DNA from: a virus
Taxonomy: Duplodnaviria > Caudoviricetes
Virus record (IMG/VR): IMGVR_UViG_3300043473_000044
Location: 1-55,741 of that record
DNA: 55,741 nucleotides
Strand: one strand, 5' to 3'
The notes below the pieces were generated by a model. The model made no database searches, was not told where the DNA came from, and saw nothing but the letters and a program-made list of their open reading frames with translations. Numbering within the stretch: the stretch's first letter is position 1; each line of letters starts with the position of its first letter. Below are positions 10,678-49,227 of this stretch, one piece after another. Position numbers and translations under genes: made by a program.

Positions 10678-11556
10678 TTACTCCGTGGACTCAACGGCGT
10701 CAACCACCTCCGGTGCCTGTTGCAACACAAACGCGACCCGCCGGGCGATCTCCGTGGGCGACATCTGCACCTCCATCTGGATCGGCGCCCCATCCTTCCC
10801 CGTGACTTCAACACGCTGCGTCTGATTAAACAGCCCCAAGTATTCACCGAGTTGCTGCAGCGCCTTCAACTTGTTACTGAGCTTGTACTTCACGCGCGTC
10901 ACCGTGGACACGTCGTTGAACTCAGTCTCCTCCATATCCAGACTATCGACGGCGGCAGCGACGTTGCGCGGCAAGAGATGCAACGGGATGTACCTGCCGG
11001 TTTCCGGGTTGATTAGTGCGCGGGGGTCAAACAGGGCGATATGGGCGATCTCCCGTACCACATTCAACATATTAATGCCCTCGTTGTGCAAAATATCAGC
11101 CCAATGGCTCTCAATGGTGTCCCGTATGCGGGGATTGGACATCAAGGCGACGCCGAGATCAGACGGATTTTGGGGGTACCCGGCGATGAGAGCAGCCTCC
11201 TGCGTTGACATCCCTTTTAAGATGCTCTTTATAAACAGCTTCTCCTGTTGTTTAAGCTGTTGGGGGGTCAAATAATCAGGGGAGTTGTAGTGGGAGTCAG
11301 TGCGGATAAAAGGCAGGGGCGAGTGTGGTGAAGGGTCAAATCCGCTGGGTTTTGGGGGATTTGTGGGGATATAGGGCGTTCTTCGGGCTGATTTTGGGTG
11401 TTTTGTGGGTTTTTGTGGGGGTTCTGCTGGTTTTTCGGGTTGGATGGGGGAAGATTGAGAATTCTTCCCCAATTTGGCTTGTCTGGAGGAGGTGTTTGGA
11501 ATCTCTAATCGGGATTCCGACCCGGGATTCGCGACCTTGCGGTTTGTGTGTATCAC
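10678..11556 (-). CDS. terS: Terminase small subunit with long disordered N-terminus
   Basis: LT......F......TQ.AA..AGY HTH, IA.FDPR, KLKAL.QLG.YLGLF and VEVTGKDGAPIQ; GTG start with AAGGAG. Confidence 0.85.
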   Translation of the reverse strand: MIHTNRKVANPGSESRLEIPNTSSRQAKLGKNSQSSPIQPEKPAEPPQKPTKHPKSARRTPYIPTNPPKPSGFDPSPHSPLPFIRTDSHYNSPDYLTPQQLKQQEKLFIKSILKGMSTQEAALIAGYPQNPSDLGVALMSNPRIRDTIESHWADILHNEGINMLNVVREIAHIALFDPRALINPETGRYIPLHLLPRNVAAAVDSLDMEETEFNDVSTVTRVKYKLSNKLKALQQLGEYLGLFNQTQRVEVTGKDGAPIQMEVQMSPTEIARRVAFVLQQAPEVVDAVESTE

Positions 11557-12352
11557 GCTTAATTCTCCTTGTAGTATGAATCGGATTGGTATGTCGTTTA
11601 TTCTATTTGATTTTTTAGGAAATAGGGAGGCGTTGAGTTATCGGTAGCTAGAAACGGGTCGAGAATCGGGATTTTAGATTCCAGTTATTTTTCCGTAGCT
11701 AAAAGGGACTCTTTAGTTTGACTTTTCAGTTTTTGGTACGCGTGGTTATCATCAAAAGGCTGGGTAAAAATCCAAACCCCCTCCCCCTTCGCCTATAGAA
11801 ATTCTATGCAGAGAAGAACTATAAGTGAGTAAAATCAAAAGCATAGTGTCGCTTCGCGGCTGTTGTTTAAAGGCATCAATGCAATGTCCTCGCTGCGCTC
11901 GGAGCGTTGAATCAAAAGCGAAAACCGGCGGAGCCGGAAGGCCGCGCAGTTCGCCACGAATAGCGCATAGCGCGTCAGGATAGCGTCTAGGCTAGGCGAT
12001 CAGGCAAACAGCGAGGGCAGCGCACATATTAAGAACGCGCGCGCGTATATCACGTTTAAAGCGCTTAGTAAATAGGCAATAATGATGCGCCGATGGTATG
12101 TTAATTGCTTGGGCGCTATTCACGAATAGCGAATAACCTGATAGCGGGGGCGCGCAGTCATTAAAGAATAGTGAATAGAATCAATATTGTGGCATACTAT
12201 ATGGAGTAATAACCGATTCGCTGGCAGCAATGAGCGCGGAACTATGCGGGGCGCTGACTTGCGCCGTGCTGATTACTGCCAGCGAATCGGTAAGAGTGAA
12301 TCGGAGCGGGGAGCGGATCGGAGCGGGGCGACGATTGCGCCCCGTGATTGGT

Positions 12353-12805
12353 CTATATTAAATCGTCAACATTGTTGATGGGCTTACCGTCCTTTCCATA
12401 AGGATTGTAGATATGATGGCGTGATAAGGTCTTACCGTCGGCTTTATATTTCAACACACCGTCAGGCCAACGTTCTAAGGGTTTTATAACCCTTTGCGGG
12501 ACGCTTGGCGGCGCTGGGGCGCTGTTAGCGTTTGCCTTTGCGCCGATTGAGAGCGCTTTATTTATCTGTTTATCTCTTATGTCTTCATGTCGTTTTATAA
12601 AAACGATTGGTATATTAGCTTTTAGCACTTCAGCAGCGGCGCATAGATCATCGATCATATAATCCTTTATTCTGACTAAACCGTTTTCCCAAGCCGCTAA
12701 ACCTTGTGCGGTAATCTTTAATCGTGAAGCAATTTCACGTTTACTTAGTCTTGATTCACGCAAAATATAGTGAATTACGGGGTGAATATCTTTATGCTTT
12801 TTCAT
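12353..12805 (-). CDS. XRE-family HTH regulator
   Basis: LSKREIASRLKITAQGLAAWENG helix-turn-helix; AGGAGG RBS. Confidence 0.75.
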   Translation of the reverse strand: MKKHKDIHPVIHYILRESRLSKREIASRLKITAQGLAAWENGLVRIKDYMIDDLCAAAEVLKANIPIVFIKRHEDIRDKQINKALSIGAKANANSAPAPPSVPQRVIKPLERWPDGVLKYKADGKTLSRHHIYNPYGKDGKPINNVDDLI

Positions 12806-12855
12806 GCTTTTTTGCCTCCTTAATAGTTAATAAAATCATCACTTTAAGTTAATAA

Positions 12856-12997
12856 ACTTGTGTTTTAGTAGTGTTTTATTGAATAAAACAACCTAAACAC
12901 AACTTAAACACTACTCCAGATAGGGGTTAAACACAACCTAAACACAAACTAAACACAAACAAACTAAACACAACCTAAACACAAGTCAAACACAAGT
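12856..12997. repeat. Array of about 11-bp repeats TAAACACAA(C/A/G)(C/T): about 9 direct plus 2 inverted copies
   Basis: Direct units near 12884, 12894, 12905, 12928, 12939, 12950, 12965, 12976, 12987; inverted units at 12856-12877. Confidence 0.9.
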
Positions 12998-13084
12998 TAA
13001 AAGCAAACCAAGATAAAAGAAAAGCCAAACAAAACCATAATAAAATAATAATAAAAGGATAATTATGTGTATATGAAAAGTAAT

Positions 13085-13117
13085 AAGGGGGAGTGCTTAT
13101 ATAGCACCCCCTTTTTT
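13085..13117 (+). terminator. Intrinsic terminator-like hairpin
   Basis: GGGG(GA)GTGCT-tatat-AGCACCCCC stem with a small bulge, followed by T6. Confidence 0.6.
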
Positions 13118-13271
13118 CATACACAGAATCCCAAGTATTAAAAACTAAAATATTGCATTTATCTAAGGATAAATTGACCTATATCAACGAATCCGATTCA
13201 TAAAGCGATTACATTACACCCATAGCATTTAGCTATTGATAACTAATTAACTTTGATAAGGAGCTTTAAAC

Positions 13272-13565
13272 ATGTTGAATACTTCAAACGGCAAAACGGT
13301 TTTAAATTCCAATGGCGCGGTTAGCGCATCGGTCAGGGAGCATCAAGCTTATAAAGCAGTAGAGGCAGCGCAAGCAGCGTACACGGCAGCGCAAGAGAAA
13401 GAGCGCGCAGCATGGGCAGCTTGGGACGCGGCAACCGACGAAGGCTTTTCGGCAGATTTTCAATCGAGATGTTTTGATATCGCAGAAGAAGCGCGCCGCA
13501 CTACATGGGCAGCATTTAACGCAATGTGTAAAGCGCAGACGGCACTAAGGGAAGGCACTTATTAA
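13272..13565 (+). CDS. Early hypothetical protein (first gene of the block)
   Basis: AAGGAG RBS; Ala-rich helical. Confidence 0.75.
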   Translation: MLNTSNGKTVLNSNGAVSASVREHQAYKAVEAAQAAYTAAQEKERAAWAAWDAATDEGFSADFQSRCFDIAEEARRTTWAAFNAMCKAQTALREGTY

Positions 13566-13575
13566 ACGGCAGGAC

Positions 13576-13635
13576 AGCACCGGCACTAGACAAGGGGCGC
13601 AATGGTGCGCCCCGACAACTACAGGAGATTTGAAA
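13576..13635 (+). promoter_or_regulatory. Cassette leader element copy 1 (AGCACCGGC, GGGGCGC hairpin, RBS)
   Basis: AGCACCGGC at 13576; GGGGCGCA-atgg-TGCGCCCC at 13594-13613; AGGAG RBS. Confidence 0.7.
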
Positions 13636-14271
13636 ATGAAAGCAACTACAGCATTAACAACAGCAGCAAAACGGGAAATCATGCTTTCGAAGAAGCGCGC
13701 AGGAATGGCGACATTAAGAGCACGGCGCAAAGCCGAAGCGCTAGAGGCGCAAGCGGCGATTCTTGTCGCAGTCGATGGCGTGATTAAGGCAGCTAAGGAG
13801 CGCGCAGCGGTAGCGCGTTATAAGGCAGCGGTTAGGGCTATCCAAGACGGCAAAACAGCGCGCGAAGTTGCGGCGCGTGAGAATGAATACCGGGTGAGTG
13901 AAGCGGCGATCTTGAAGCGCGAAGGGGGAGCACTAGCACCGGCGACGCTTGATCTAACCGGCGCGCTAACGGCAGTGCGCACCTTCATTGCATATTCGGC
14001 ATTTGGAAAGCTGATATTAGCGGCGCTCTGTAATCAGTACAACCGGCGGCACTGGCTACAGCAAGCTTTTGCAGACGGCAATTGGCAGAAGGTGAAACTG
14101 TGCGTTATGAGAGGCAGCGAGCTTGATGTATTGAACTATGAGCTTTCGATTACTAAATGCCGCTTTAACGCTCATCTATGCCGGAGGCGCATTGCCGGAC
14201 TGATTGAGCTTGCTGAAAGTGAAAGCGCCGGTATTACACGGCATAGCCTGAGCGCTGGAACAGCTTATTAA
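13636..14271 (+). CDS. Early hypothetical protein
   Basis: ATG at 13636 after AGGAG. Confidence 0.7.
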   Translation: MKATTALTTAAKREIMLSKKRAGMATLRARRKAEALEAQAAILVAVDGVIKAAKERAAVARYKAAVRAIQDGKTAREVAARENEYRVSEAAILKREGGALAPATLDLTGALTAVRTFIAYSAFGKLILAALCNQYNRRHWLQQAFADGNWQKVKLCVMRGSELDVLNYELSITKCRFNAHLCRRRIAGLIELAESESAGITRHSLSAGTAY

Positions 14272-14343
14272 AATGAATTTATAGCACCGCCAGTGCGTTT
14301 ATATGCTGGCGGATAGTCAACCATACCAGAGAGGGGCGGGAAA

Positions 14344-14568
14344 ATGAGGCAAGCTTACATAGTGATTGCGGAGCACCCGGACGACGAAAGCGCGCAGCGG
14401 CGGATATACACCAGCGCGCAGAATGAACTAAGCGCGCTGGTGCTAGTGCAAAGCTATCTTGACGCGGGAGAGGGCAGGGAGAGCGGCTATAGAGTAATCG
14501 GTATTGATTGGGCAGGGACAACAGCGGAGCGCGAGAGCGCAGCATTAAGACAAGGGGCAGGAAAATGA
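14344..14568 (+). CDS. Early hypothetical protein
   Basis: ORF with GAGGGG RBS; ATGA overlap with the next gene. Confidence 0.6.
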   Translation: MRQAYIVIAEHPDDESAQRRIYTSAQNELSALVLVQSYLDAGEGRESGYRVIGIDWAGTTAERESAALRQGAGK

Positions 14569-15095
14569 GCATACAGACAACGTACACACTCAAGCAATTG
14601 GAGAGCATAGCAAAGCGCGGGGGGCGCGTCCTGTTAGTCGAGACAGGCGACAGAATAGGACATGTCCTAAGCTGGCATAAAGGCGACAAGGCAGCGTATG
14701 AAGCGGCGCAGCGGTCAAGCTATGAAAACACGCGGCGCATATCGGTTAAAGAAGCGATAAGAGAGCTAACACCGGCAGCACCGGCAGCACCGGCAGCACC
14801 GGCAGCACCGGCAGCACCGGCACCAGCACCGGCGCTGTTTTTAATCACGATGGAAAAATCAGGACTTCACTATTTTTTGCGAAGCACTATTTGTGCTAGT
14901 TCCGTGATCCGTGCGGATAAATTCGAGACACACGAAGCGGCGGCGGCAGCATTGCTAAAGCTAAAGGCTAAAAAATTCTATCCGGCGCAAGTATTCAAGC
15001 AGTTCAGGATCGTACCGGCGGACACATTCGCGCCGGACTATGACAATTTGGAAGTATTCATTGCAGCGCAAAAAGCGAAAGCGAACCAGCAGTAA
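14565..15095 (+). CDS. Early hypothetical protein with (PAA)n linker
   Basis: Starts MSIQTT at the ATGA overlap; 9-bp tandem repeat at 14777-14833. Confidence 0.65.
   Translation: MSIQTTYTLKQLESIAKRGGRVLLVETGDRIGHVLSWHKGDKAAYEAAQRSSYENTRRISVKEAIRELTPAAPAAPAAPAAPAAPAPAPALFLITMEKSGLHYFLRSTICASSVIRADKFETHEAAAAALLKLKAKKFYPAQVFKQFRIVPADTFAPDYDNLEVFIAAQKAKANQQ
14777..14833 (+). repeat. Tandem AGCACCGGC x6
   Basis: Five perfect tandem 9-mers and a sixth at 14825. Confidence 0.95.
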
Positions 15096-15167
15096 ACAGC
15101 ACCGGCGGGGCGCAATGTCGCGCCCGGCTTAACCTTTATGGGAGTTTTAAAAATGAGTACAGCACTA
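15095..15167 (+). repeat. 73-bp cassette leader repeat (copy 2; 70/73 identical to 15502-15574)
   Basis: AACAGCACCGGCGGGGCGCAATGTCGCGCCC...TTTATGGGAGTTTTAAAAATGAGTACAGCACTA. Confidence 0.95.
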
Positions 15168-15503
15168 AAGACAATTTTAGGCAATGCGTTAATCAGCTTA
15201 ACCGATGAGCGGCGCACATTAGAAAGCGGACTGTCAGAGATTACCCGGCAGATTGCGCAGATTGAAGAAGGCATTGCACGGCTAAACAGTCAGGGCGCGC
15301 CGATAGCACCGGAACCAAGCACGCCGCCTTGCGCCGCCTTCAATCTGGTACAGGATGGCAGTAAAGAGCTACCGTGGAGTTATAAGCTTTTGGACGTTGA
15401 CGGCAAGATGATTGCCTTTAGCATTAAAGGCTATAGAACCCCGACAGGGGCGCGCCTCGCGGCGATCATGGCTAAGAAGAAAATAAACTATAACGCAAGG
15501 TAA
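15153..15503 (+). CDS. Early hypothetical protein (coiled coil plus small C-terminal domain)
   Basis: Starts MSTAL within the repeat; GGGAG RBS. Confidence 0.7.
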   Translation: MSTALKTILGNALISLTDERRTLESGLSEITRQIAQIEEGIARLNSQGAPIAPEPSTPPCAAFNLVQDGSKELPWSYKLLDVDGKMIAFSIKGYRTPTGARLAAIMAKKKINYNAR

Positions 15504-15574
15504 CAGCACCGGCGGGGCGCAATGTCGCGCCCCTCTTAACTTTTATGGGAGTTTTAAAAATGAGTACAGCACTA
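15502..15574 (+). repeat. 73-bp cassette leader repeat (copy 3)
   Basis: Near-identical to 15095-15167. Confidence 0.95.
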
Positions 15575-16318
15575 GCGACAGCGGTCAGGGAACAGGCGGT
15601 TAAAGAAGCGGCGAAGGATAAAAAGCAGCGGCGGAAATATGCGGCGAAAATGGAAGCAGCGAAAGCACCGGCGGCGCACCCGGCGGCTTTGCCGGTCACG
15701 CTAGAGATTGACGCGCACTACCTGAAAGCCGCGCTTTGCTTTGCAGCGGTCAAGGATTTGAAGCGCCCTATGTTGCAAGGCGTGTGTCTGAACGTGTTAA
15801 GCAGCGGTCAGGTGCGCTTGACGGCTACAGACGGGCGCGCAATGGGTATTTTTAACTTGCCGTTAGCGAATCTCGAAGCGAACCCGGCGCGGGAAGACTT
15901 CCAGACGATCTTACCTCGCGACATTATCGAAGCGCTAAAAATAAGGAGCACAGATTTTCAGCATATTCCAGTTTGCTTGACTGTAAGCGCAGACAGAAAA
16001 CAGCTTACGCTTTCGCGCTTTGGTCAGACGTTCACATGTGCGGCGGTTAAAGACCGATACCCTGACTATTTAAACATCGTAAACGGTTTTAGAGGGCGGA
16101 CACCCAGCGGCGAGGCGGCGCAGTTTGACGCGGATATTCTTTATACGATGGGCAAAGCTTTCAAGATATTGCACCCCAAAGTTAACTATTGCGCACCGGC
16201 TATAGCGCACGACGGCGCGAACGGTAGCGCACTGTTTAGCCTTGCCTGTGAAAACTTTATAGGCGTAGTTATGCCGCTAAAAGTTGACGCGCCGCGCGGC
16301 TTGCCTGACTGGATTTGA
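15560..16318 (+). CDS. DNA polymerase III beta-clamp-like protein (partial, about two domains)
   Basis: LKAA..FAA.KD.KRP.LQGV ... ATDG ... YPDY..IV ... GVVMPL resembles DnaN domains 2-3. Confidence 0.7.
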   Translation: MSTALATAVREQAVKEAAKDKKQRRKYAAKMEAAKAPAAHPAALPVTLEIDAHYLKAALCFAAVKDLKRPMLQGVCLNVLSSGQVRLTATDGRAMGIFNLPLANLEANPAREDFQTILPRDIIEALKIRSTDFQHIPVCLTVSADRKQLTLSRFGQTFTCAAVKDRYPDYLNIVNGFRGRTPSGEAAQFDADILYTMGKAFKILHPKVNYCAPAIAHDGANGSALFSLACENFIGVVMPLKVDAPRGLPDWI

Positions 16319-16377
16319 GCACATGATTTGCCAGGGTAAACGAGTGACTATTTTCAACGAAAAGGGAGCACTGAATT

Positions 16378-16590
16378 ATGAACCTGACGCAGTTAAGACA
16401 ATATCCGGCGCTGTTCGCTTACCGCAAAGCTTTACAGGCAGAGGCAGAAACAATCAAAGCTTATTTGTATTGTTTAGAACAAGGCGGCGCGGGACTGTTT
16501 GATACAGAGTGCGCTATGCACGATGCAAAAAACCGCACCCTGATTGCCAAAAAACGGGTAGAGCAATTTTCAACGAAAAGGGAGCACTGA
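16378..16590 (+). CDS. Early hypothetical protein flanked by 32-bp direct repeats
   Basis: ATTTTCAACGAAAAGGGAGCACTGAATTATGA at 16350-16381 and 16566-16597. Confidence 0.7.
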   Translation: MNLTQLRQYPALFAYRKALQAEAETIKAYLYCLEQGGAGLFDTECAMHDAKNRTLIAKKRVEQFSTKREH

Positions 16591-16593
16591 ATT

Positions 16594-17214
16594 ATGAGTT
16601 ATGACATGACATATTTAACCGAGGAAATCACGGCAGCGCACGGCACCCGCTTTAAAATCGAATTGTCTTATGACGATTATTTCCGCGAACCGTGGAAGGA
16701 AAACGACGGACATGGAGAGGTCAGCGACTGGACGACAAGAGACAAGCGCGCCGGGGAGCTTGTACTTTGGCAGGACGGACGCTCTAAGCTTTTTTATGAC
16801 TTTGCCGGAGCGGTCAAGACTGCGCGCGCTGACGGATGGGGAAGTCGCGATTGCGCCCCGGACGATACGCCCGGACAGAGAGCGCATAAGGCGGCTATGA
16901 GTGATTACAACTATTTGCGCGATTTTTGCCGTCAAGAGTGGTGGTATTGCGTTTTACATGTAGCAATGCTGAATGAAGACGGCACGGAAAACGAAGATTA
17001 CACAGATACTTGTGGAGGCTTCGAAGACGGTCACGGCAAGCGATACCGCGATTATGTAATGGAGGAGGCGCAAGGCATGGCAGACAGTCTGGAAAGGCAG
17101 CTTGAGGCGGACATAGCGCGGCGCTTGGCTACACCATGCACAGTTTGGCCTATGCCGTTAATCGCGCGCTATGGCAGCGGAAAGGCGGCGAATTATGATC
17201 CGGCGCGCTTATAA
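16594..17214 (+). CDS. Early hypothetical acidic protein
   Basis: GGGAG RBS; PW...DGHG.V, WWY motifs. Confidence 0.75.
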   Translation: MSYDMTYLTEEITAAHGTRFKIELSYDDYFREPWKENDGHGEVSDWTTRDKRAGELVLWQDGRSKLFYDFAGAVKTARADGWGSRDCAPDDTPGQRAHKAAMSDYNYLRDFCRQEWWYCVLHVAMLNEDGTENEDYTDTCGGFEDGHGKRYRDYVMEEAQGMADSLERQLEADIARRLATPCTVWPMPLIARYGSGKAANYDPARL

Positions 17215-17287
17215 ATTTATGGTTTGTGCAGTAATCGCGCTTGTGATTATTTTGGAAGTGAACCGGATATTAAGAGGATTTTAAATT

Positions 17288-17449
17288 GTGGATAAAAGAT
17301 TGATTGACTATTACCCGCCGAAAATGCGCGAACAGTTTGAGCGCGCAGCGCAAGAGCGCAAGCAGATTAGACCGCCGGATATTCTAGCGCTAATCGTTTT
17401 CGGCATTGTCATAGGTACGGTATTAGCAGAAGCGTTTTTATTGAAGTAG
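17288..17449 (+). CDS. Small C-terminally anchored membrane protein (53 aa)
   Basis: Hand-translated from GTG with GAGGA RBS; ends ILALIVFGIVIGTVLAEAFLLK. Confidence 0.55.
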   Translation: MDKRLIDYYPPKMREQFERAAQERKQIRPPDILALIVFGIVIGTVLAEAFLLK

Positions 17450-17498
17450 GCAGCACCAGCGGGATCTTGCAACTTAACTCTTTATAGGATTTTTAAAA

Positions 17499-17933
17499 AT
17501 GAAAAACCAGACAGAACCGAAACTGTTCGAACTGATAGCGCGCATTAAAGCGCTACAAACGCAGCAAGCGGACTATAACGCGCCAGCGCTGACCATAGCC
17601 GAAGCGAACGAACTGGAAAAAGCTATCCGCACCGTCGAGCACATTACAAATATGTCATATAGAAAACCGGAACCAGCACCGGCAGATGAGCGCGATTCAA
17701 TAACAATTACTTGGAACATTGACGATGTTTTTGATTTGGCAGAACGTGAAGGGCGCGAAAAACCGACAATCGAACAGGCGCGCGAAGTGCTGGCACGCGA
17801 AGTGCTGGCAATGGCTGACAAACATCACGATGCAAATTATGGAATTTCTTGGGATACCTTATCCCATTATTTGCATGAAGTGTGCGGCGACAGCAGCGCG
17901 GACGAAGACGTAAGCGAGGGGGGCGCAATATGA
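17499..17933 (+). CDS. Early hypothetical protein
   Basis: SI.I.W.IDDV ... A.EVL ... HDAN.GISWD pattern; 15-bp tandem duplication at 17781-17810. Confidence 0.7.
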   Translation: MKNQTEPKLFELIARIKALQTQQADYNAPALTIAEANELEKAIRTVEHITNMSYRKPEPAPADERDSITITWNIDDVFDLAEREGREKPTIEQAREVLAREVLAMADKHHDANYGISWDTLSHYLHEVCGDSSADEDVSEGGAI

Positions 17934-18202
17934 GAACTAAGATAATAAAAGTGATTGCCTATAAAGCGACAGACGGCAAATTATTTGAAGATAAGAACGA
18001 CGCGCTAGAGCATAGCCGCTGCTTATGGGAGGAAAGACTAGCGGCTTTCATGGGTAAATTAAAATTGGACGATACGCAAAACCCGATTAAAAACCATACC
18101 AAGCTAATGGAATTCATGCTTAAAAATGCGCTAGTGCTACGGGATATTTTCAATGCGGCGGCATACTCTGAAAGCGAGGGGGGCGAAAATGATGATTGCT
18201 AA
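17930..18202 (+). CDS. Early hypothetical protein
   Basis: ATGA overlap start MRTKII; AY.A.DGKLF motif. Confidence 0.65.
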   Translation: MRTKIIKVIAYKATDGKLFEDKNDALEHSRCLWEERLAAFMGKLKLDDTQNPIKNHTKLMEFMLKNALVLRDIFNAAAYSESEGGENDDC

Positions 18203-18668
18203 GTTACCAGCACCGGACGCGGCGCAATTACACGCTACCCAATATGATAATAAAGAAGTGATCCGGCATTACCATGTTATTGGTTTATTCGAGGGGCGCA
18301 TGATCGACTTCATAGATTGCCGGTTATACATGGGCAAGTCGCCTTGTGCGTCTGTTGTGTACGCTTCGATATGGGTCAAGGGAGAACCGACGGTCAGAGA
18401 AGGGGCGCACCCGTTCCGCTCAGTCTATACCGCTTGCGCGCTTCATGTGTCCGGGCGCGGTCAAGCTGGCGGCTATGGATACCATAAACCAAGTGCGGCT
18501 ATAGACGCGGCGATCCGTAGCGCTGGTATCACCCTTGAATATACCGACAGCGCAGACAAGGGGCGCAAGGCGGACATATCAGGCGTAGGCGACGAGGCGA
18601 TCCGGGAAGCGTTAGAAGCGATTGCGCGCGCTTGCGGGGCGCAAGGTGAAGTAATGATAGTGCAGTAA
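18189..18668 (+). CDS. Early conserved hypothetical protein
   Basis: G.G.AGGYGYHK.SAA...A...AGI motif. Confidence 0.7.
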   Translation: MMIAKLPAPDAAQLHATQYDNKEVIRHYHVIGLFEGRMIDFIDCRLYMGKSPCASVVYASIWVKGEPTVREGAHPFRSVYTACALHVSGRGQAGGYGYHKPSAAIDAAIRSAGITLEYTDSADKGRKADISGVGDEAIREALEAIARACGAQGEVMIVQ

Positions 18669-18736
18669 GAACAAACGCAGCCGCGCCCCGTTAAAAGGGG
18701 CGCAAACTTAAACTTAAATCAAAGGAGCAATAAACC

Positions 18737-19291
18737 ATGACGACAGAAATTAGCAGCACCCGTACTGCAATTAATCGAGGTGATATTGAGGCGCGAATCG
18801 AAGAACTGGAAGGGGAGCGCGAAACGCTACAGGAAGCAATCGAGGAGGCGAAGCAAGAGCGCGCGGACTTGCTAGAAAATATTGAAAACTGCAAAGCTGA
18901 CAACGAAGGCGAGGAACGCAGCGCGGACACCAGAGAGGCGCTAAGGGACGCAAAGCAAGCGCTTAGGGACTTTGACGAGGAGGGCAGCATTGAAAACGCA
19001 GAATTCAACTTATTAGCTTTCAATAATGACGAATCAGGCGAAGGCGCAGAACTGGCAGCGCTTCAACAATTGCTTGATGACATGGGCGGCGCGGACGAAC
19101 TGATAAATGATGATTACTTTACGGACTATATCGAGGAGCTAATAAAAGACTGCTACCCGATGCCGGAAGGATTCGACGAAGGCGCATGGCCGTGGCGACA
19201 TATGGCAATGGACTATGAGAGCGCAGCGGACGAAGCGAAGCAGGACTATTCAAACGTAGAATTTAACGGTCAGACTTTTTGGGCGCGGTAG
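18737..19291 (+). CDS. Highly acidic ArdA-like antirestriction / DNA-mimic candidate
   Basis: Very D/E-rich; F.DY.EEL..D....P ... DYE..A.E...DY resembles the ArdA C-terminal domain; AAGGAG RBS. Confidence 0.5.
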   Translation: MTTEISSTRTAINRGDIEARIEELEGERETLQEAIEEAKQERADLLENIENCKADNEGEERSADTREALRDAKQALRDFDEEGSIENAEFNLLAFNNDESGEGAELAALQQLLDDMGGADELINDDYFTDYIEELIKDCYPMPEGFDEGAWPWRHMAMDYESAADEAKQDYSNVEFNGQTFWAR

Positions 19292-19300
19292 TAATCAGGG

Positions 19301-19358
19301 AGCACCAGCGGGGCGCAATGTCGCGCCCCGTTTTAACTTTGATTGAGGATTTTAAAAA
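19301..19358 (+). promoter_or_regulatory. Cassette leader element copy 4
   Basis: AGCACCAGC, CGGGGCGC-aatgtc-GCGCCCCG, TTAACTT, GAGGA RBS. Confidence 0.75.
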
Positions 19359-19568
19359 ATGGAAATTACAACGAACAACAGGCCGCGCAAACTAAACGGA
19401 AAGGCTTTTAAGTACAGAGGGCGCTTTTTTCATCTTGATAATTTTAAACAAGCGCGTGCGGTCATGGTTTTATTAGGCTGGCATGGAGTAGTGCATAACA
19501 ACAGGGGCGGCGGCATAGCGATAAAACTCACGGCGGACAATTCGCACGTTATTGTCGGACGCTTTTAA
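19359..19568 (+). CDS. Early hypothetical protein
   Basis: I.TNN.PR ... F.Y.G ... V.VGR. Confidence 0.7.
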   Translation: MEITTNNRPRKLNGKAFKYRGRFFHLDNFKQARAVMVLLGWHGVVHNNRGGGIAIKLTADNSHVIVGRF

Positions 19569-19592
19569 CTTAATCACTTTGGGATTTTAAAA

Positions 19593-19802
19593 ATGAGCAC
19601 ATATTACGATAGCCAGATAGCAGCGCTAAAAGTTGACGAAAACAGCGTATATAAACCAACTATTAAAATTTGGGGAAATCGCGGCGACAACAAAAGCACG
19701 AATCACTTTTCGATAAGCTTTGACCAGCTAGAAAAAATCCGCGTTATCTTGAATCAAGCAGCACCGGCAGCGGTAACAGCACCAGCGGAAAGGGGCGCTT
19801 AA
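19593..19802 (+). CDS. Early hypothetical protein
   Basis: GGGATTTTAAAAATG start context shared with neighbours. Confidence 0.7.
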   Translation: MSTYYDSQIAALKVDENSVYKPTIKIWGNRGDNKSTNHFSISFDQLEKIRVILNQAAPAAVTAPAERGA

Positions 19803-19804
19803 TC

Positions 19805-20080
19805 ATGTACTGGACGACAGGCAGCGGCATAATAAGCTTACAGATAACGAAGGCAGAAGCAGCGCAAGGGGCGCATAGCGGATCGTGTGACGCTGACATT
19901 CTGGAACTAAGCAGAAAGCCGCGAATCAGGCGACAGCTTGCAAAGATTGATAAGGAAGTTTTAAAACGGGAACTTGACCAGTGGGGCGCTTGGGACGATG
20001 ACGAACTGGCTGACCATGAGCAAAATTTGCAGCGCGTTTTATGGATTGCTTGCGGCGATATATCCGAGGGGCGCTGTTAG
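19805..20080 (+). CDS. Early conserved hypothetical protein
   Basis: H.G.CD.D ... GAWD..EL.D...N..R.LW.A motif. Confidence 0.75.
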   Translation: MYWTTGSGIISLQITKAEAAQGAHSGSCDADILELSRKPRIRRQLAKIDKEVLKRELDQWGAWDDDELADHEQNLQRVLWIACGDISEGRC

Positions 20081-20107
20081 AGCACCGGCAGGACAGCAGC
20101 ACCAGAC

Positions 20108-20131
20108 GCGCCCCGCTTGGGGCGCTTTTTT
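20108..20131 (+). terminator. Intrinsic terminator closing the early operon
   Basis: GCGCCCC-gctt-GGGGCGC followed by T6. Confidence 0.85.
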
Positions 20132-20145
20132 ATGGACGCTACCCA

Positions 20146-20214
20146 GCGAAGGGCGCAGGACGGGGCGCGCAGGACGACAGCATCCGGCGAAGGGCGCAGG
20201 ACGGGGCGCGCAGG
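20146..20214. repeat. 28-bp direct repeat x2 (GCGAAGGGCGCAGGACGGGGCGCGCAGG)
   Basis: 20146-20173 and 20187-20214. Confidence 0.95.
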
Positions 20215-20286
20215 GTTTTTATGCTTTTTGGATTTTTTGACCCAAAAATCGGCCTCGATTTTTCCGCGCCCGACCCATGGTGAAGC

Positions 20287-20320
20287 ATCCCACACCGCGC
20301 AAAATCCCACACCGCGCAAA
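20287..20320. repeat. 17-bp tandem repeat x2 (ATCCCACACCGCGCAAA)
   Basis: 20287-20303 and 20304-20320. Confidence 0.95.
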
Positions 20321-20427
20321 ATAGTGTATTATGCGCGCTGAAGGTTTCGGATCAGTCCGCTATCGTCAGCCTGAACCCTCCTATTACTGATCTCCCCGAG
20401 AGTCACTGATATGGAGGGTTCAACTTT

Positions 20428-22404
20428 TTACGGGTTATTTATCTCTACCCGCCCATCCACAATGATTACCTGATTTGCTTTCTCAAGCTTATCAAGCCCT
20501 GTTCTGCCCCACTCCATTGCATGCACTTCGGCTACCGACGGCCACTCGCCGCGGCTATCGTGGTACTCCTTAACGCCATCAAGCACGGTATGGGCCGCAT
20601 CCCCCACCGACGTTCTGCGCTGCGCTTTGGGCGTGACCTCGCCCTCCTTCACAAAGCAACTGCCTACCGGCTCCCCGTCCTCATCCTCGCCCACCTCAAC
20701 CCATTCCAAAGTGAAGCCGTACTCAGCGCCTTCCTCTCCGTCCTTCTGCTTCTCGATTTCGGCCACGCGCTCGTTACCGTCGCGGGTCACGCATATCTCC
20801 ACACCGAGCGCGCCGCGCACCCCTGACCAGCCACGCGCGCCCTTCGATGCGTCCTTGCCGGAGTGATGGATAAGCAAGACCAGCGCGCCTGTGTGCTTAT
20901 GCACCAGCTTGCTGTTGGAGATGATCCGCCCCATGTCCCGGCTTGAGTTCTCATCGCCCCCCGGCATGACGCAAGCGACGGTATCGATGGCCACAACGAG
21001 CAGCGGGGGCGTACCCGGTACCTTCTGCAGCTTCTTCAGGCTCTTGATGAGGTCGGTTGTATCCTTGGTTTCCAACAGGTTGGGGGAATCCCCGAGCACG
21101 AACAGCGGGACGTCCTCGATGTCGAGATCATGGCGCTGCATGTACGCCTTGATGCGGTTCTTCGCCCCCATTGACCCCTCAGCCGCAACGTATGCGACCG
21201 ATCCCGCCTGTTTGATCTTGTGCTCCCTCCAATCGATGCCCTGCGCGACCGCGCACATCATGTCGAGCGCTAGGAAGCTCTTGCCGCTGCCTGATTCGCC
21301 GTAGATCATGCCGACTTCGTCCATGGGCAGCACGTCCTTGATGATCCATGACGGTTGCGCGCCGGTGACGAACTCGGACGCATGCTTGAACGCGAAGCGG
21401 TGAGAGGGGAGGGCGTCAGCCGGGTCCACACCGAGCAGATCGCTCACGTCGAACGAGTCCTGCGCGTTCTCCTCGATGATGTCGAACATGTCCGCCACGC
21501 GGATGCCGATCGCCTCCTTGAACTCTGTGTCGGTACGGTGAGCGCAGCTTGCGTGGAGGCAATGGAAGTGCCCCTCGACGTAGCCGCCGGTATGGGGAGG
21601 GTAGTACACGGTTTCCGTGGTGCCGCCGGACATGGAGTGACCATCCACGAAGGGGCAGACGATACTGAGCATGCCGTCCGCGCGCTGGTCGATGATCTGG
21701 CCGCGCTCACTCAGCGCTTGCACTATGGGATCGTTGGCGACCGCTTCGGAGAGGCGCAGCGCCTTGGTAGGCAGCGATGATTCGACCGATTCTTCGACCG
21801 CGAAGCGCTCCTCAAGCTCCTTCCACAACGAGTTGAATTCGGTCAGGGTCAGCGCCGTGATGTGTGTTGGCCAGCCTTCCGGCCACTCGTATCTGACCCC
21901 GCTTGTGTGAGTTGAATCAAGAAGGCACTGTTGACCAGTGCCTAGGAATTCTATGAAGCCATGCTCAGTCTTCAACCGGCGCTTGGGCAGGATGCCTTCG
22001 ACGTCAAGCAGGACTAGGAATTTGGGAGAGTTGCTTCGTGTGCGGAGGGGGAAGTGCCCGAACACGTTAAGCGCCTCGTACACGTCGCTGGCCAAGTTCT
22101 CGTCACCGATATCAACATCGATCGCACGGACATGTCGGGTCTGCATGCACAGGCCGAGTTCGGGATTCTTTGACCATCGCGTGATCTCGGCTTCCGTGGT
22201 CTGGTGTTCAGTCCATTTCGGCATGCCCACGGCCTGACCGTTACTGTTGTAAACGCTTGGCACCTTGCCGATGGCCTTGAGCGTTGATGTAGGGGAAATC
22301 CCTGCGTTTGGATTGGCCGCAACGGGCAGGAGGTCAGCCCCTAGCCCTAGAACAAGGTCAAAGTGATCCCACGCACCGGGAGAAGCCCCGTAGTGTTGGC
22401 GCAT
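20428..22404 (-). CDS. Primase-helicase (Prim-Pol-like N-terminus, Zn ribbon, RecA-type AAA_25 helicase)
   Basis: IDVD primase motif, CP...H...CLHASC, Walker A GESGSGKS, IDT, IHHSGKD...GARG.S. Confidence 0.88.
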   Translation of the reverse strand: MRQHYGASPGAWDHFDLVLGLGADLLPVAANPNAGISPTSTLKAIGKVPSVYNSNGQAVGMPKWTEHQTTEAEITRWSKNPELGLCMQTRHVRAIDVDIGDENLASDVYEALNVFGHFPLRTRSNSPKFLVLLDVEGILPKRRLKTEHGFIEFLGTGQQCLLDSTHTSGVRYEWPEGWPTHITALTLTEFNSLWKELEERFAVEESVESSLPTKALRLSEAVANDPIVQALSERGQIIDQRADGMLSIVCPFVDGHSMSGGTTETVYYPPHTGGYVEGHFHCLHASCAHRTDTEFKEAIGIRVADMFDIIEENAQDSFDVSDLLGVDPADALPSHRFAFKHASEFVTGAQPSWIIKDVLPMDEVGMIYGESGSGKSFLALDMMCAVAQGIDWREHKIKQAGSVAYVAAEGSMGAKNRIKAYMQRHDLDIEDVPLFVLGDSPNLLETKDTTDLIKSLKKLQKVPGTPPLLVVAIDTVACVMPGGDENSSRDMGRIISNSKLVHKHTGALVLLIHHSGKDASKGARGWSGVRGALGVEICVTRDGNERVAEIEKQKDGEEGAEYGFTLEWVEVGEDEDGEPVGSCFVKEGEVTPKAQRRTSVGDAAHTVLDGVKEYHDSRGEWPSVAEVHAMEWGRTGLDKLEKANQVIIVDGRVEINNP

Positions 22405-28948: not shown

Positions 28949-29422
28949 ATGTCACTCGAAGATCAATTAGGAAAAATAAACGCTAATCTCGAAGGTCTGA
29001 ACGTAACATTCGGAAAACTAAACACTAATCTCGAAAGACTGATCGCGAAGATTCCAACCCTTCCGTTCCTCAAGGAAGGTCCACCAGAAACCCCCGCTGT
29101 TAAGAACGAACCTCAAGAGAAACCGGCAAAGACTCCCGCTAAACCGAAGGGTGCTGACTCTGCGGCTGCTGCAAAACCAAAGGCTGAACCCGCTCCTGCT
29201 TCCGATCCAGATGCTGAGGGCGATGACAATCCCGAGAAAGTTACGCAGAAATCCTTGGGCGTATTAGTTACCGAACTTGGCAGCTTGGTCGGACGTGACG
29301 CTACGATCGCATTGATCAGCAAGTTCGGCGGCGATCGCTTGCCTAAAGTCCCTGCCGATCGATACGTCGATCTTGAGATCGCGCTGTCCAAAGCTATCAA
29401 CAAAGCAAAAGAGGCAAAGTAA
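28949..29422 (+). CDS. Conserved protein preceding DUF2800
   Basis: MSLE N-terminus, Pro/Ala/Lys linker, FG...L..VP...Y C-terminus; usual synteny. Confidence 0.7.
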   Translation: MSLEDQLGKINANLEGLNVTFGKLNTNLERLIAKIPTLPFLKEGPPETPAVKNEPQEKPAKTPAKPKGADSAAAAKPKAEPAPASDPDAEGDDNPEKVTQKSLGVLVTELGSLVGRDATIALISKFGGDRLPKVPADRYVDLEIALSKAINKAKEAK

Positions 29423-30791: not shown

Positions 30792-31370
30792 ATGGCAATG
30801 GTAACTTTGAATAAAGTAAGGCTGGCCTTTCCTAACCTGTTTGAGGCGAAGTCGATTGACGACGGTACCCCGCGCTACGGCGCGACGTTCATCATCGACC
30901 CGGACAGCAAAAATGCCAAGGCTATCGAGGCAGCTATGGAGGAGGTGGCTACGACCAAGTGGAAAGCCAAGGGTGAGAAGACTCTAGAAGAACTGAAGCG
31001 CAAGGAGAAAGTTGCCTACGGTGAGCGCGAGAAGACGAGCAGCGCCGGGCAAGTGTTCCAAGGCTTCGAGGATAAATACTTCTTGAGTTCGTACAACAAG
31101 AACCGCCCGACCGTGATCGATGGCCGTCGCCAGCCGCTGACTGCCAACGACGGGAAACCCTACGCCGGTTGCTACGTCAACGCCATCGTCGATATATGGG
31201 CGCAGGACGATGCCAAGTTCGGCAAGCGGATAAACGCTACCCTGACCGGCGTCCAGTTTCATTCAGACGGCGACGCCTTTGGCGGCGGCGCACCGGCACC
31301 GGCTGACTCCTTCCCCGATCTCTCGGACAGCGGCGACGAGGATGATGGTGATGTTGACGATCTCATATAG
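30792..31370 (+). CDS. DUF2815 single-stranded DNA-binding protein
   Basis: VRL.FP.LFE, YAGCYVNA, GVQF..DG..FGGG and acidic tail. Confidence 0.88.
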   Translation: MAMVTLNKVRLAFPNLFEAKSIDDGTPRYGATFIIDPDSKNAKAIEAAMEEVATTKWKAKGEKTLEELKRKEKVAYGEREKTSSAGQVFQGFEDKYFLSSYNKNRPTVIDGRRQPLTANDGKPYAGCYVNAIVDIWAQDDAKFGKRINATLTGVQFHSDGDAFGGGAPAPADSFPDLSDSGDEDDGDVDDLI

Positions 31371-38675: not shown

Positions 38676-38690
38676 GATTTTCTCCTTAAG

Positions 38691-48604: not shown

Positions 48605-48613
48605 GTCTGTTTC

Positions 48614-49216: not shown

Positions 49217-49227
49217 TTAAGTTCCCC

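What the first reader, a model, noticed from the sequence alone, without database searches (positions are those of the whole stretch)
13576..20089. Seventeen co-oriented copies of a Chi-like 9-mer (AGCACCRGC; reverse GCYGGTGCT)
Seen: exact copies at 13576, 13935, 14777, 14786, 14795, 14804, 14813, 14825, 15098, 15505, 15664, 17452, 17675, 19301, 19760, 19778 and 20081. Near-matches lie at 15305, 16192, 18209 and 20098, with one reverse copy at 14436. Six copies are intergenic, so codons alone cannot explain them. Established: E. coli Chi is GCTGGTGG and is read by RecBCD approaching from its 3' side. Inference: GCYGGTGC is 1-2 bases from Chi and is oriented for an enzyme entering from an end near 11.8 kb. 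The phage may armour its leading end with host Chi, with the PAA protein repeat as a by-product. Alternative: a boxA-like antitermination or translocase-loading site.
Basis: partly seen in the sequence, partly recalled or inferred. Interest (0 to 1): 0.8.

Follow-up and report, generated by a model that had tools for sequence, protein, structure and literature searches.

The report
Gene-boundary motif in phage early operon
A nine-base word repeated 17 times in one direction in a soil phage's early genes marks the boundaries between genes and protein modules, as the front edge of a repeated spacer cassette, and it has not been shown to copy the host's Chi recombination signal.

Summary
AGCACCRGC occurs 24 times in the 55.7-kb phage genome, against 1.3 in shuffles. 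Seventeen plus-strand copies lie at the stated places.

The copies fall into two classes.
- Six are intergenic, 0-10 nt after a stop codon. They form the 5' edge of a roughly 65-nt cassette: 9-mer, hairpin GGGGCGC-AATGTC-GCGCCCC, then TTAACTTT-GGGAG-TTTTAAAAATG. A related metagenome phage (L009) has the same cassette with 9 forward and 0 reverse copies.
- Eleven are coding, all read GCA-CCR-GC (Ala-Pro-Ala). Six of these are one length-polymorphic 9-bp array. They sit at fusion joints or homology breakpoints against L009.

Genes present in only one phage are flanked by cassette copies.

Best reading (0.5): an intercistronic punctuation and junction cassette, like T4 PeSLs but without a promoter. 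In-frame copies serve as linkers.

The Chi reading stays open at about 0.17. GCACCGGC is the genome's commonest octamer, and codon use does not explain that. Against it: there is no strand polarity outside the operon, a relative with an 81% identical portal has one copy, and the phage has its own exonuclease and annealing protein. Neither the host nor the genome terminus could be determined.

The parts
13272..20080 (+). Early operon of 17 small co-oriented genes. It is the only region where the 9-mer is dense and polar.
   Evidence: ORFs and translations are. Most products have no Pfam family. PHROG hits go to unknown-function families plus a clamp-like domain. A divergent HTH gene lies at 12353-12805 and a terminator at 20108-20131.
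13576..13635 (+). Cassette copy 1: 9-mer, 9-nt spacer, hairpin 13594-13613 (loop AATGGT), ribosome-binding site, ATG at 13636.
   Evidence: The fold is -20.8 kcal/mol with z -2.24.
15096..15152 (+). Cassette copy 2: 9-mer directly abutting hairpin 15107-15126, then TTAACCTTTATGGGAGTTTTAAAA and ATG at 15153.
   Evidence: It is the reference copy of the 79-nt repeat family D3, and copy 3 (15502) is 94% identical to it. It is 93.6% identical to L009 4799-4876.
15504..15559 (+). Cassette copy 3: 9-mer, hairpin 15514-15533, ribosome-binding site, ATG at 15560.
   Evidence: The simple scan flags it as terminator-like.
17450..17498 (+). Hairpin-less cassette copy: 9-mer, then CTTAACTCTTTATAGGATTTTTAAAA and ATG at 17499.
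   Evidence: It is 87% identical to L009 6967-7018, where the 9-mer region is expanded to (GCACCA)3.
19292..19358 (+). Cassette copy 4: 9-mer, hairpin 19310-19329, ribosome-binding site, ATG at 19359. The last 3 nt of the 9-mer extend the stem.
   Evidence: One search gives -27.3 kcal/mol with z -2.98 and 0 of 200 shuffles as good. In strain G006 the same site reads AGCACT-AGCACC followed by the hairpin.
20081..20131 (+). Operon end: 9-mer immediately after the stop codon, a near-copy at 20098, then hairpin 20108-20125 and a T-run (intrinsic terminator).
   Evidence: It is conserved in G006 with R=A.
14768..14833 (+). Tandem array of 9-bp units encoding (PAA)n, at the joint of two modules in gene 14565-15095.
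   Evidence: family D1. Residues 1-52 match L009 gene 4027 and residues 91-174 match L009 gene 4281, with the array between them. One extra unit is present in runs X3 and X4.
13935..13943 (+). Coding copy (Ala-Pro-Ala) in an interdomain linker of gene 13636-14271. It is conserved at the orthologous place in L009 (3221).
15664..15672 (+). Coding copy at residues 36-38 of the clamp-like gene, directly before the point where protein homology to L009 begins (residue 39).
17675..17683 (+). Coding copy at residues 60-62 of gene 17499-17933, directly before homology to L009 gene 7335 (from residue 63). In L009 that gene is preceded by a full intergenic cassette.
19760..19786 (+). Two coding copies at the C-terminus of gene 19593-19802, just upstream of the next gene's ribosome-binding site (GGGGCGCTTAATCATG).
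   Evidence: This whole gene is replaced by other sequence in runs X3 and X4 and in G006.
14283..14313 (+). One-mismatch copy (AGCACCGCC) running into a different hairpin (CCGCCAG...CTGGCGG). In L009 the stem reads CCGCCCT...AGGGCGG, which is two compensatory changes.
16350..16597 (+). Two exact 32-nt copies of another start-region repeat flanking gene 16378-16590.
   Evidence: family D7. A joint 16349->16566 that removes the gene appears in contigs of runs X3, X4 and X5.

Best explanation
AGCACCRGC is the conserved front edge of a roughly 65-nt intercistronic cassette that punctuates the phage's early operon. It also serves as the sequence at which early-gene modules are joined.

The cassette has a fixed order: stop codon of the upstream gene, the 9-mer, a 7-10-bp G/C hairpin, and then a strong translation start (TTAACTTT, GGGAG, TTTTAAAA, ATG).

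Inferred mechanism, in three parts:
- On the polycistronic early mRNA the hairpin acts as a leaky attenuator, or as a processing or 3'-end stabilising stop, between cistrons. The downstream part then restarts translation.
- Because the cassette is repeated at about 90% identity, it gives portable homology. Early genes are gained, lost and swapped between cassette copies, as described for T4-type PeSL cassettes.
- Read in one frame the 9-mer spells Ala-Pro-Ala. When two cassette-bounded genes fuse, it therefore survives as a harmless flexible linker and can expand by slippage.

Shown here: the architecture, its conservation, its position at boundaries, and indels flanked by cassettes. Inferred: the RNA-level role and the recombination mechanism.
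For: Position and architecture:
- The six intergenic copies lie 0-10 nt after a stop codon. In 3 of 6 the hairpin abuts the 9-mer, and the ATG follows the hairpin by 22-29 nt.
- AGCAC is invariant in 9 of 9 aligned intergenic copies from the window, L009 and L129.
- The hairpin pattern occurs only in this operon: 3 matches against 0 in shuffles, plus the variant at 15107.

Conservation in relatives:
- L009 carries 74% amino-acid identity in the marker gene and has 9 forward and 0 reverse copies. The other 79 of 80 metagenome loci have 4 forward and 4 reverse in 482 kb.
- Cassette copies are 87-94% identical between the two phages. Most genes are 73-80% identical.

Indels bounded by cassettes:
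- Window gene 15153-15503 is absent from L009 and is flanked by two cassette copies.
- L009 gene 7012-7275 is absent from the window and is flanked by cassette copies.

Coding copies at homology breakpoints:
- The array lies between residues 52 and 91 of a gene that is two separate genes in L009.
- Ala-Pro-Ala at residues 60-62 sits before homology that starts at residue 63.
- Ala-Pro-Ala at residues 36-38 sits before homology that starts at residue 39.
- L009's Ala-Pro-Ala at residues 137 and 140 sits before homology that starts at residue 149. The window has an intergenic cassette at that junction.

Other support:
- All 11 coding copies use one frame.
- Contigs from other soil samples show one extra 9-bp unit in the array. 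They also show loss of a gene between two 32-nt start-region repeats and replacement of gene 19593-19802.
- The hairpin appears in the minimum-energy fold of the 6 cassettes folded that have it. Two of them pass a terminator-like scan.
Against: - No RNA data exist, so the RNA-level role is pure inference.
- Whole intergenic segments fold clearly better than shuffles (7 or fewer of 200 as good) in only 4 of 11 segments.
- The hairpin copies are almost identical, so there is no covariation. The only compensatory changes are at the different hairpin at 14283.
- Terminator-like sites are not enriched in the region overall (16 found against 12.3 in shuffles).
- The cassette explanation does not account for GCACCGGC being over-represented outside the operon. 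There it occurs 15 times against 2.8-4.4 expected, and it encodes 7 of 14 Ala-Pro-Ala sites (p=1.5e-5).
- It also does not explain the A before in-frame copies (6 of 7, p=0.002), unless those copies descend from cassettes.
- Two cassette copies lack the hairpin.
- A relative with the same operon layout (G001) manages without the 9-mer or the hairpin.
Confidence: 0.5

Rival explanations
1. Chi-like site. GCYGGTGC(T) on the minus strand is the crossover-hotspot sequence of the unknown host. It has accumulated near the first-entering or packaging end, where it attenuates RecBCD/AddAB and promotes recombination.
For: - GCACCGGC is the most frequent octamer of the genome, with 22 on the + strand and 8 on the - strand. 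This is the criterion used for phages LLS and MD8.
- Codon use does not explain the excess.
- The motif is 1-2 mismatches from GCTGGTGG and from the Pseudomonas GCTGGCGC (abstract). A rough chance estimate for that closeness is about 0.03.
- The cluster is co-oriented and lies next to the terS/non-coding region, in the orientation that suits entry from that side.
- The array varies in copy number between strains.
- Clustered, co-oriented Chi near ori and pac sites is in print.
- A 3' end made at Chi would also place mosaic joints at the motif.
Against: - Polarity exists only inside one transcription unit. Outside it the octamer is 7:8 and the 9-mer is 1:5. The cluster stops exactly at the operon terminator.
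- Fourteen of 17 copies are the form that is two mismatches from Chi.
- Intergenic copies have fixed spacing to the stop codon, hairpin and ribosome-binding site.
- Relative G001 has 0 forward and 1 reverse copy, yet it shares the exonuclease and annealing-protein genes.
- The phage has its own exonuclease and Gp2.5-like annealing protein. Chi-rich lambdoids mostly lack a Rec module.
- In 201 Pseudomonadota genomes no clear outlier was seen, but that call gives no replichore information, so it is inconclusive.
Confidence: 0.17
2. nut-like processive antitermination site. The single-stranded 9-mer (boxA-like) and the hairpin (boxB-like) on the nascent RNA load a phage protein and host Nus factors onto RNA polymerase at each gene boundary. 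The candidate phage protein is the Arg/Lys-rich N-terminus of gene 13636-14271.
For: - The architecture is a single-stranded motif directly 5' of a hairpin with an invariant loop.
- The first copy lies just upstream of gene 13636-14271. The Arg/Lys-rich segment of that gene is its best-conserved part against L009 (82.5% over 13661-13740).
- The last copy precedes the operon terminator.
- G001 lacks both that gene and the cassettes.
Against: - The motif bears no resemblance to the boxA consensus as I recall it.
- There are 5-6 sites per operon where two would be expected.
- Rfam gave no match.
- The co-occurrence rests on 2 phages with the feature and 1 without.
- Coding copies inside translated ORFs could not act this way.
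Confidence: 0.1
3. No function of the word itself. Early proteins favour Pro/Ala linkers, slippage multiplies one codon set (GCA CCG GC), and the intergenic copies hitch-hike on a duplicated hairpin-RBS cassette.
For: - Ala-Pro-Ala is enriched at the protein level: 8 observed against 1.09 in residue shuffles, 0 of 5000 as high.
- At the 8-mer level the codon choice at these sites is not significantly different from the rest of the genome (7/8 against 7/14, p=0.095).
- Repeat units of 9, 6 and 3 nt occur at the motif.
- The cassette copies are paralogous.
Against: - AGCAC is invariant in 9 of 9 intergenic copies. Two of those lack the hairpin, and one has a 9-nt spacer.
- The -1 A is enriched.
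- There are 9 forward and 0 reverse copies in L009, mostly at non-orthologous places. That looks like maintenance through turnover.
Confidence: 0.15

Closest known systems
PeSL (promoter-early stem-loop) cassettes of T4-type phages (Arbiol et al. 2010, PMC2839356; abstract and section 14 read)
   Same: Both are repeated intergenic cassettes running from the upstream stop codon, through a polyG/polyC stem-loop, to the Shine-Dalgarno sequence and start codon. Both are concentrated among small early genes of unknown function. In both, insertions, deletions and replacements between related phages are bounded by cassette copies.
   Different: No sigma-70-like promoter is found in the cassette. The cassette has a conserved 9-mer that also occurs in frame inside genes as a linker. 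The phage has a T7-like portal and is not a T4-type myovirus.
Start-associated sequences (SAS) and extended SAS of Cluster K mycobacteriophages (Pope et al. 2011, PMC3203893; passages read)
   Same: Both are asymmetric short repeats, nearly all in one orientation. Both are restricted to the non-structural genes, lie between genes, and are paired in about half the sites with an upstream inverted repeat. Both are conserved next to unrelated genes, and the function of each is unknown.
   Different: The SAS is a 13-mer lying 3-7 bp from the start codon and it contains the Shine-Dalgarno sequence. Here the 9-mer is at the far (stop-codon) end, 46-59 nt from the ATG, and it also occurs within ORFs.
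Chi-rich phages LLS, P1 and MD8 (Zheng et al. 2025, PMC12315714, abstract and sections 6, 15, 18 read; Bobay et al. 2013, PMC3784561, abstract and passages read)
   Same: In both, the commonest octamer of the genome is not explained by codon use. It forms a mostly co-oriented cluster near one end or near the packaging region, and it resembles GCTGG-type Chi.
   Different: There the sequence is the host's proven Chi, the polarity spans the genome, and the phages lack a Rec module. Here the host is unknown, the polarity is confined to one operon, a Rec-type module is present, and the copies are tied to gene boundaries.
Lambda-type nut sites (boxA plus boxB); recalled, no paper read
   Same: A short single-stranded word lies next to a small hairpin in early-operon RNA.
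   Different: The sequence differs from boxA and boxB, there are many copies per operon, and no N-like protein was identified.

Membership tests
Chi hotspot / Chi-rich phage class | Recognised by the host RecBCD or AddAB enzyme in one orientation | not testable with these tools
   This needs the host and an enzyme assay. The host is unknown: the best cultured-phage portal match is 29% identical, and the genome-contig scan gave only one hit at 22%.
Chi hotspot / Chi-rich phage class | Over-represented and replication-oriented in the host genome | tested here: inconclusive
   In 201 Pseudomonadota genomes sampled blind, motif-to-control ratios ran from about 0.3 to 11, with a highest density of about 1 per 5 kb. 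No replichore information is given and the host is not known to be among them.
Chi hotspot / Chi-rich phage class | Most frequent octamer of the phage genome, beyond codon use | tested here: met
   GCACCGGC occurs 22 times on + and 8 on -, the top octamer. Outside the operon it occurs 15 times against 2.8-4.4 expected. It encodes 7 of 14 Ala-Pro-Ala sites against an expected frequency of 0.068.
Chi hotspot / Chi-rich phage class | Same orientation across the genome towards one end | tested here: not met
   The 9-mer is 17:1 inside the operon but 1:5 outside it. The octamer is 7:8 outside.
Chi hotspot / Chi-rich phage class | Phage lacks its own recombination module | tested here: not met
   A DUF2800/PD-(D/E)XK exonuclease lies at 29422-30753 and a Gp2.5-like annealing protein at 30792-31370.
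PeSL mobile regulatory cassette | Sigma-70-like early promoter inside the cassette | tested here: not met
   None of the 8 promoter-like hits in 12800-20400 lies in a cassette.
PeSL mobile regulatory cassette | G/C stem-loop between the upstream stop codon and the downstream Shine-Dalgarno sequence and start | tested here: met
PeSL mobile regulatory cassette | Indels and replacements between related phages bounded by cassette copies | tested here: met
   There are two gene presence/absence cases between the window and L009. A further deletion between 32-nt start-region repeats occurs in three runs.
Lambda-type nut site | boxA/boxB sequence and a cognate N-like protein | tested here: inconclusive
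   Rfam gave no match. The motif is unlike the recalled boxA. The Arg/Lys-rich N-terminus of gene 13636-14271 is only a candidate.
Cluster K SAS/ESAS | Asymmetric repeat within a few nt of the start codon that includes the Shine-Dalgarno sequence | tested here: not met
   The 9-mer lies 46-59 nt upstream of the ATG, next to the stop codon. Only the separate GGGAGTTTTAAAAATG part occupies that position.
Stoperator (Cluster A mycobacteriophage repressor sites) | Bound by the phage repressor | not tested
   This is inference only. The iterons beside the HTH gene differ completely between the window, L009 and G001, while the 9-mer is the same in the window and L009.

The most novel reading that the evidence does not exclude
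The 9-mer is a true Chi-type signal of an unknown soil host, and the phage has planted it at every gene and module boundary of the operon that enters the cell first. There it would tame RecBCD/AddAB at the leading end. It would also focus crossovers on the boundaries, so that early (probably anti-host) genes are exchanged as intact cassettes. In frame it would double as an Ala-Pro-Ala linker.
Probability: 0.13. Interest if true: 0.8.

Novelty: new variant of a known kind. Interest (0 to 1): 0.5.

Why it matters
Early operons of uncultured phages hold most of the unknown host-takeover and anti-defence genes, and how these genes are shuffled is poorly understood outside T4-like and mycobacterial phages.

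This locus is a compact, sequence-defined junction. It acts as intergenic punctuation in one phage and as an in-frame linker in its relative. That offers a concrete route for fission, fusion and swapping of early genes.

If the Chi reading proved right, it would also give a candidate Chi for an uncultured soil host. It would further link Chi hotspots to modular exchange.

Tried and rejected
Relatives and host:
- blastn of the operon against cultured phages found no match.
- Two scans of viral contigs, one for the 9-mer plus half hairpin and one for the 206-aa early protein, found nothing.
- The hairpin alone found one record, G006, a third strain whose contig ends inside the operon.
- The portal search in genome contigs gave only one hit at 22%, and cultured phages are at most 29% identical.
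- The blind sample of 201 Pseudomonadota genomes gives no strand-by-replichore information. I first misread its hit list as a strand skew. The list is simply forward hits first, so I dropped that reading.

Ideas rejected:
- Rfam gave no match.
- An N4-like hairpin promoter needs a virion RNA polymerase. The 2130-aa protein has no PDB relative, and its only PHROG overlap with a virion RNA polymerase family is in an N-terminal region shared with other families. No T7-size RNA polymerase ORF exists.
- A sigma-54 or sigma-70 promoter inside the cassette was rejected by inspection and.
- Stop-codon read-through or a coding remnant was rejected because intergenic copies fall in all three frames.
- A mini-ORF (ATG in the hairpin loop) was considered and is not consistent across copies.
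- Pairing of the 9-mer with 16S rRNA or with another part of the operon was examined by eye only and found nothing.

Sequencing runs:
- No RNA holder is listed.
- All runs are kept as contigs, so termini, strands and RNA ends could not be read.
- Contig breaks in X1 at the repeats are assembly effects.

A correction: one search used n=9 collapsed Ala-Pro-Ala sites. The correct n is 8, recomputed.

Supplements of the papers were closed. Supplemental Table S3 and Fig. S5 of PMC12315714 may bear on Chi in non-enteric phages.

Full report
**What the window is.** The window is a complete IMG/VR virus record of 55,741 nt. Its 127-nt identical ends look like an assembly overlap and say nothing about the physical ends. 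It is a tailed phage with these identifiable genes:

| Gene | Coordinates | Strand |
|---|---|---|
| T7-like portal | 1698-3341 | - |
| Small terminase | 10678-11556 | - |
| PrimPol-helicase | 20428-22404 | - |
| Family A DNA polymerase | 31588-33654 | + |
| DUF2800 exonuclease | 29422-30753 | + |
| Gp2.5-like annealing protein | 30792-31370 | + |
| SNF2 helicase | 34664-36088 | + |
| Large virion proteins | within 37179-51900 | - |

There is no close cultured relative; the best portal match is 29% identical. DNA like it occurs in contigs of soil and rhizosphere metagenomes.

**The observation.** AGCACCRGC occurs 24 times, 18 on + and 6 on -, against 1.27 in shuffles with a largest value of 5. 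They lie within one transcription unit of 17 small co-oriented genes at 13272-20080. That unit starts beside a divergent HTH gene and an iteron array, and it ends at a hairpin plus T-run at 20108-20131. AGCACCGG is the commonest 8-mer of that region at 16:0. Six of the 17 copies form one tandem array, so there are 12 independent sites.

**Two classes of copy.** Eleven copies are coding and six are intergenic.
- All 11 coding copies are in the frame a|GCA|CCR|GC, which spells Ala-Pro-Ala.
- The six intergenic copies lie in 590 nt of spacer, where about 0.005 would be expected by chance.
- The intergenic copies sit 0-10 nt after the upstream stop codon and fall in all three frames relative to that ORF, so they are not coding remnants.

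**The cassette.** The intergenic copies are the front edge of a larger unit.
- In three window copies the 9-mer abuts the 20-nt hairpin GGGGCGC-AATGTC-GCGCCCC. In one there is a 9-nt spacer. One copy has no hairpin. The last copy precedes the operon terminator.
- The ATG follows the hairpin by 22-29 nt, through TTAAC(T/C)TTTAT-GGGAG-TTTTAAAA.
- The TTAACTTTA part resembles the T7 gene 10 'epsilon' translational enhancer as I recall it. No tool checked this.
- The hairpin pattern occurs nowhere else in the genome.
- In the minimum-energy folds the hairpin forms in the 6 cassettes folded that have it, and the last 2-3 nt of the 9-mer often extend the stem. Whole spacers beat shuffles clearly (7 or fewer of 200 as good) in only 4 of 11 segments.
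- Two hairpins pass a lenient terminator-like scan. No sigma-70-like promoter lies in any cassette.

**Relatives.**
- Among 80 metagenome loci that encode a relative of gene 16594-17214, only L009 (74% amino-acid identity) is syntenic. It carries 9 forward and 0 reverse copies. The other 79 loci (482 kb) carry 4 forward and 4 reverse.
- L009 has the same cassette twice, plus a hairpin-less copy in which the motif is expanded to (GCACCA)3.
- Cassette copies are 87-94% identical between the two phages. Most genes are 73-80% identical, with one gene segment at 92%.
- A third strain, G006/L129, keeps the terminal copy with R=A. At the 19301-equivalent site it reads AGCACT-AGCACC directly before the hairpin, so the core AGCACC is what persists.
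- Phage G001 has an 81% identical portal, a complete genome and the same overall layout. It has 0 forward and 1 reverse copy and no such hairpins. Its early genes keep only the TTAACTTT-GGAG-TTTAAA-ATG start regions.

**The motif marks boundaries.** blastp between the early proteins of the window and L009 gives four cases:
- Window gene 14565-15095 is a fusion. Residues 1-52 match L009 gene 4027, residues 91-174 match L009 gene 4281 at 90%, and the (PAA)n array fills residues 72-90.
- In gene 17499-17933 the Ala-Pro-Ala at residues 60-62 directly precedes homology to L009 gene 7335 (from residue 63). In L009 that gene starts after a full intergenic cassette.
- In the clamp-like gene the Ala-Pro-Ala at residues 36-38 precedes homology that starts at residue 39.
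- L009 gene 2442 is a fusion whose Ala-Pro-Ala at residues 137 and 140 precedes the part homologous to window gene 13636-14271. In the window that gene is preceded by cassette copy 1.

Gene content differs at cassettes too. Window gene 15153-15503 is absent from L009 and is flanked by two copies of a 79-nt cassette repeat that are 94% identical to each other. L009 gene 7012-7275 is absent from the window and lies between two cassette copies.

Contigs from other soil samples add the following:
- one more 9-bp unit in the array (runs X3 and X4);
- loss of gene 16378-16590 between two exact 32-nt start-region repeats (runs X3, X4 and X5);
- replacement of gene 19593-19802 (runs X3 and X4), also seen in G006.

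These are contigs, so they show presence only.

**Is it only codons?** It is not.
- With proteins fixed, synonymous shuffles give 1.08 copies against 11 observed. With the array collapsed they give 0.57 against 6. In each case 0 of 3000 shuffles reached the observed count.
- Ala-Pro-Ala itself is enriched in the early proteins: 8 observed against 1.09, with 0 of 5000 shuffles as high.
- The codon set GCA-CCG-GC is also favoured outside the operon. It encodes 7 of 14 Ala-Pro-Ala sites against an expected frequency of 0.068 (p=1.5e-5).
- Because of that, the early sites do not differ significantly from the rest at the 8-mer level (7/8 against 7/14, p=0.095). They do differ at the 9-mer level (6/8 against 3/14, p=0.022).
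- The preceding A is present in 6 of 7 sites (p=0.002).
- GCACCGGC is the commonest octamer of the whole genome at 22+ and 8-. Outside the operon it is 3-5 times over Markov expectation (15 against 2.8-4.4). G001 has one copy.

This genome-wide excess is not explained by the cassette reading.

**The Chi reading.** Clustered, co-oriented Chi in phages is published.
- In lambdoids Chi is concentrated near the origin and the packaging sites (Bobay 2013).
- Pseudomonas phage MD8 has 32 GCTGGCGC sites, all on one strand. In these phages Chi is the top octamer and they lack a Rec module (Zheng 2025).
- GCTGGCGC is the P. syringae Chi.

The present motif shares the top-octamer property, the excess beyond codon use, and a GC(T/C)GG-type sequence 1-2 mismatches from both known octamers. 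My rough chance estimate for that closeness is about 0.03.

It differs in five ways:
- Polarity exists only inside the early operon. The 9-mer is 17:1 there and 1:5 elsewhere, and the octamer is 7:8 elsewhere. The cluster ends at the operon terminator, although 13 kb of plus-strand genes follow.
- Fourteen of 17 copies are the two-mismatch form.
- Intergenic copies are locked to the stop codon, hairpin and ribosome-binding site.
- The phage has an exonuclease and an annealing protein of its own.
- G001 lacks the motif while sharing those genes.

The host could not be found. A blind sample of 201 Pseudomonadota genomes gave no clear outlier and no replichore information. Termini cannot be read from contigs. 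Boundary placement does not decide the matter either. Spacers and linkers are where any selected word is tolerated, and a 3' end made at Chi would itself put mosaic joints at the motif.

**Verdict.** The feature is real and non-random. Its best-supported description is a promoter-less, PeSL-like intercistronic cassette whose 5' word is also the junction sequence of early-gene modules and survives in frame as a Pro/Ala linker. The architecture, the conservation and the boundary association are shown. The RNA-level role (attenuation, processing or stabilisation plus translational restart) and the recombination role are inferred by analogy with PeSLs and with the SAS/ESAS repeats of Cluster K mycobacteriophages.

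I put this reading at 0.5, the Chi-like reading at 0.17, a nut-like antitermination site at 0.10, and a functionless linker, slippage and hitch-hiking origin at 0.15. The remainder is unassigned.

Two earlier first-reader notes on this genome pointed the same way (a hairpin-RBS cassette array, and an early host-takeover block). I saw their titles only and checked the first myself.

Noticed in passing
window 12883-13017: About eight 11-bp-phased TAAACACAA units lie between the divergent HTH gene and the early promoter region. L009 and G001 have homologous HTH genes but entirely different iterons at the same place (AAAAGAGATCAAAA; AGATACATGTTTA and GTAACTAAAA). This looks like swapping of repressor or initiator specificity.
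   Followed up: partly
window 11683-12083: A non-coding stretch between terS and the HTH gene is 74.5% identical to L009 and partly conserved in G001, including a CCCCCTCCCCC run. It is a candidate packaging or end region. No terminus could be mapped.
   Followed up: partly
window 16350-16381 and 16566-16597: Two exact 32-nt copies of a start region flank gene 16378-16590. Contigs of three other soil runs join the two copies and lack the gene. L009 has an unrelated gene at that position.
   Followed up: yes
window 20143-20214: Two 31-nt direct repeats (97% identical, 41 nt apart) lie just after the operon terminator. They are conserved in G006.
   Followed up: no
window 15560-16318: The early gene carries only a DNA polymerase III beta central-domain-like region (252 aa). 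Relative G001 has a 364-aa clamp-like gene at the end of its early operon.
   Followed up: no
L011 2818-2920 and 3441-3540: A distant phage that shares the 206-aa early gene has an AT-rich early block. Each gene there is preceded by a repeated cassette of GC hairpin plus T-run, a TTGCTTGCAATAATTAATTAATTAAGT stretch, and a TATAGGAGT ribosome-binding site. That is a true terminator-promoter (PeSL-like) cassette.
   Followed up: partly
window 13636-13740: The N-terminus of gene 13636-14271 is Arg/Lys-rich (KREIMLSKKRAGMATLRARRK). It is the best-conserved part of that gene against L009 (82.5% at the nucleotide level).
   Followed up: no
window 19593-19802: This 69-aa gene carries two of the 9-mers. 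It is replaced by an unrelated sequence of similar length in contigs of two other runs and in G006, with joints right after the ATG and just before the next ribosome-binding site.
   Followed up: partly
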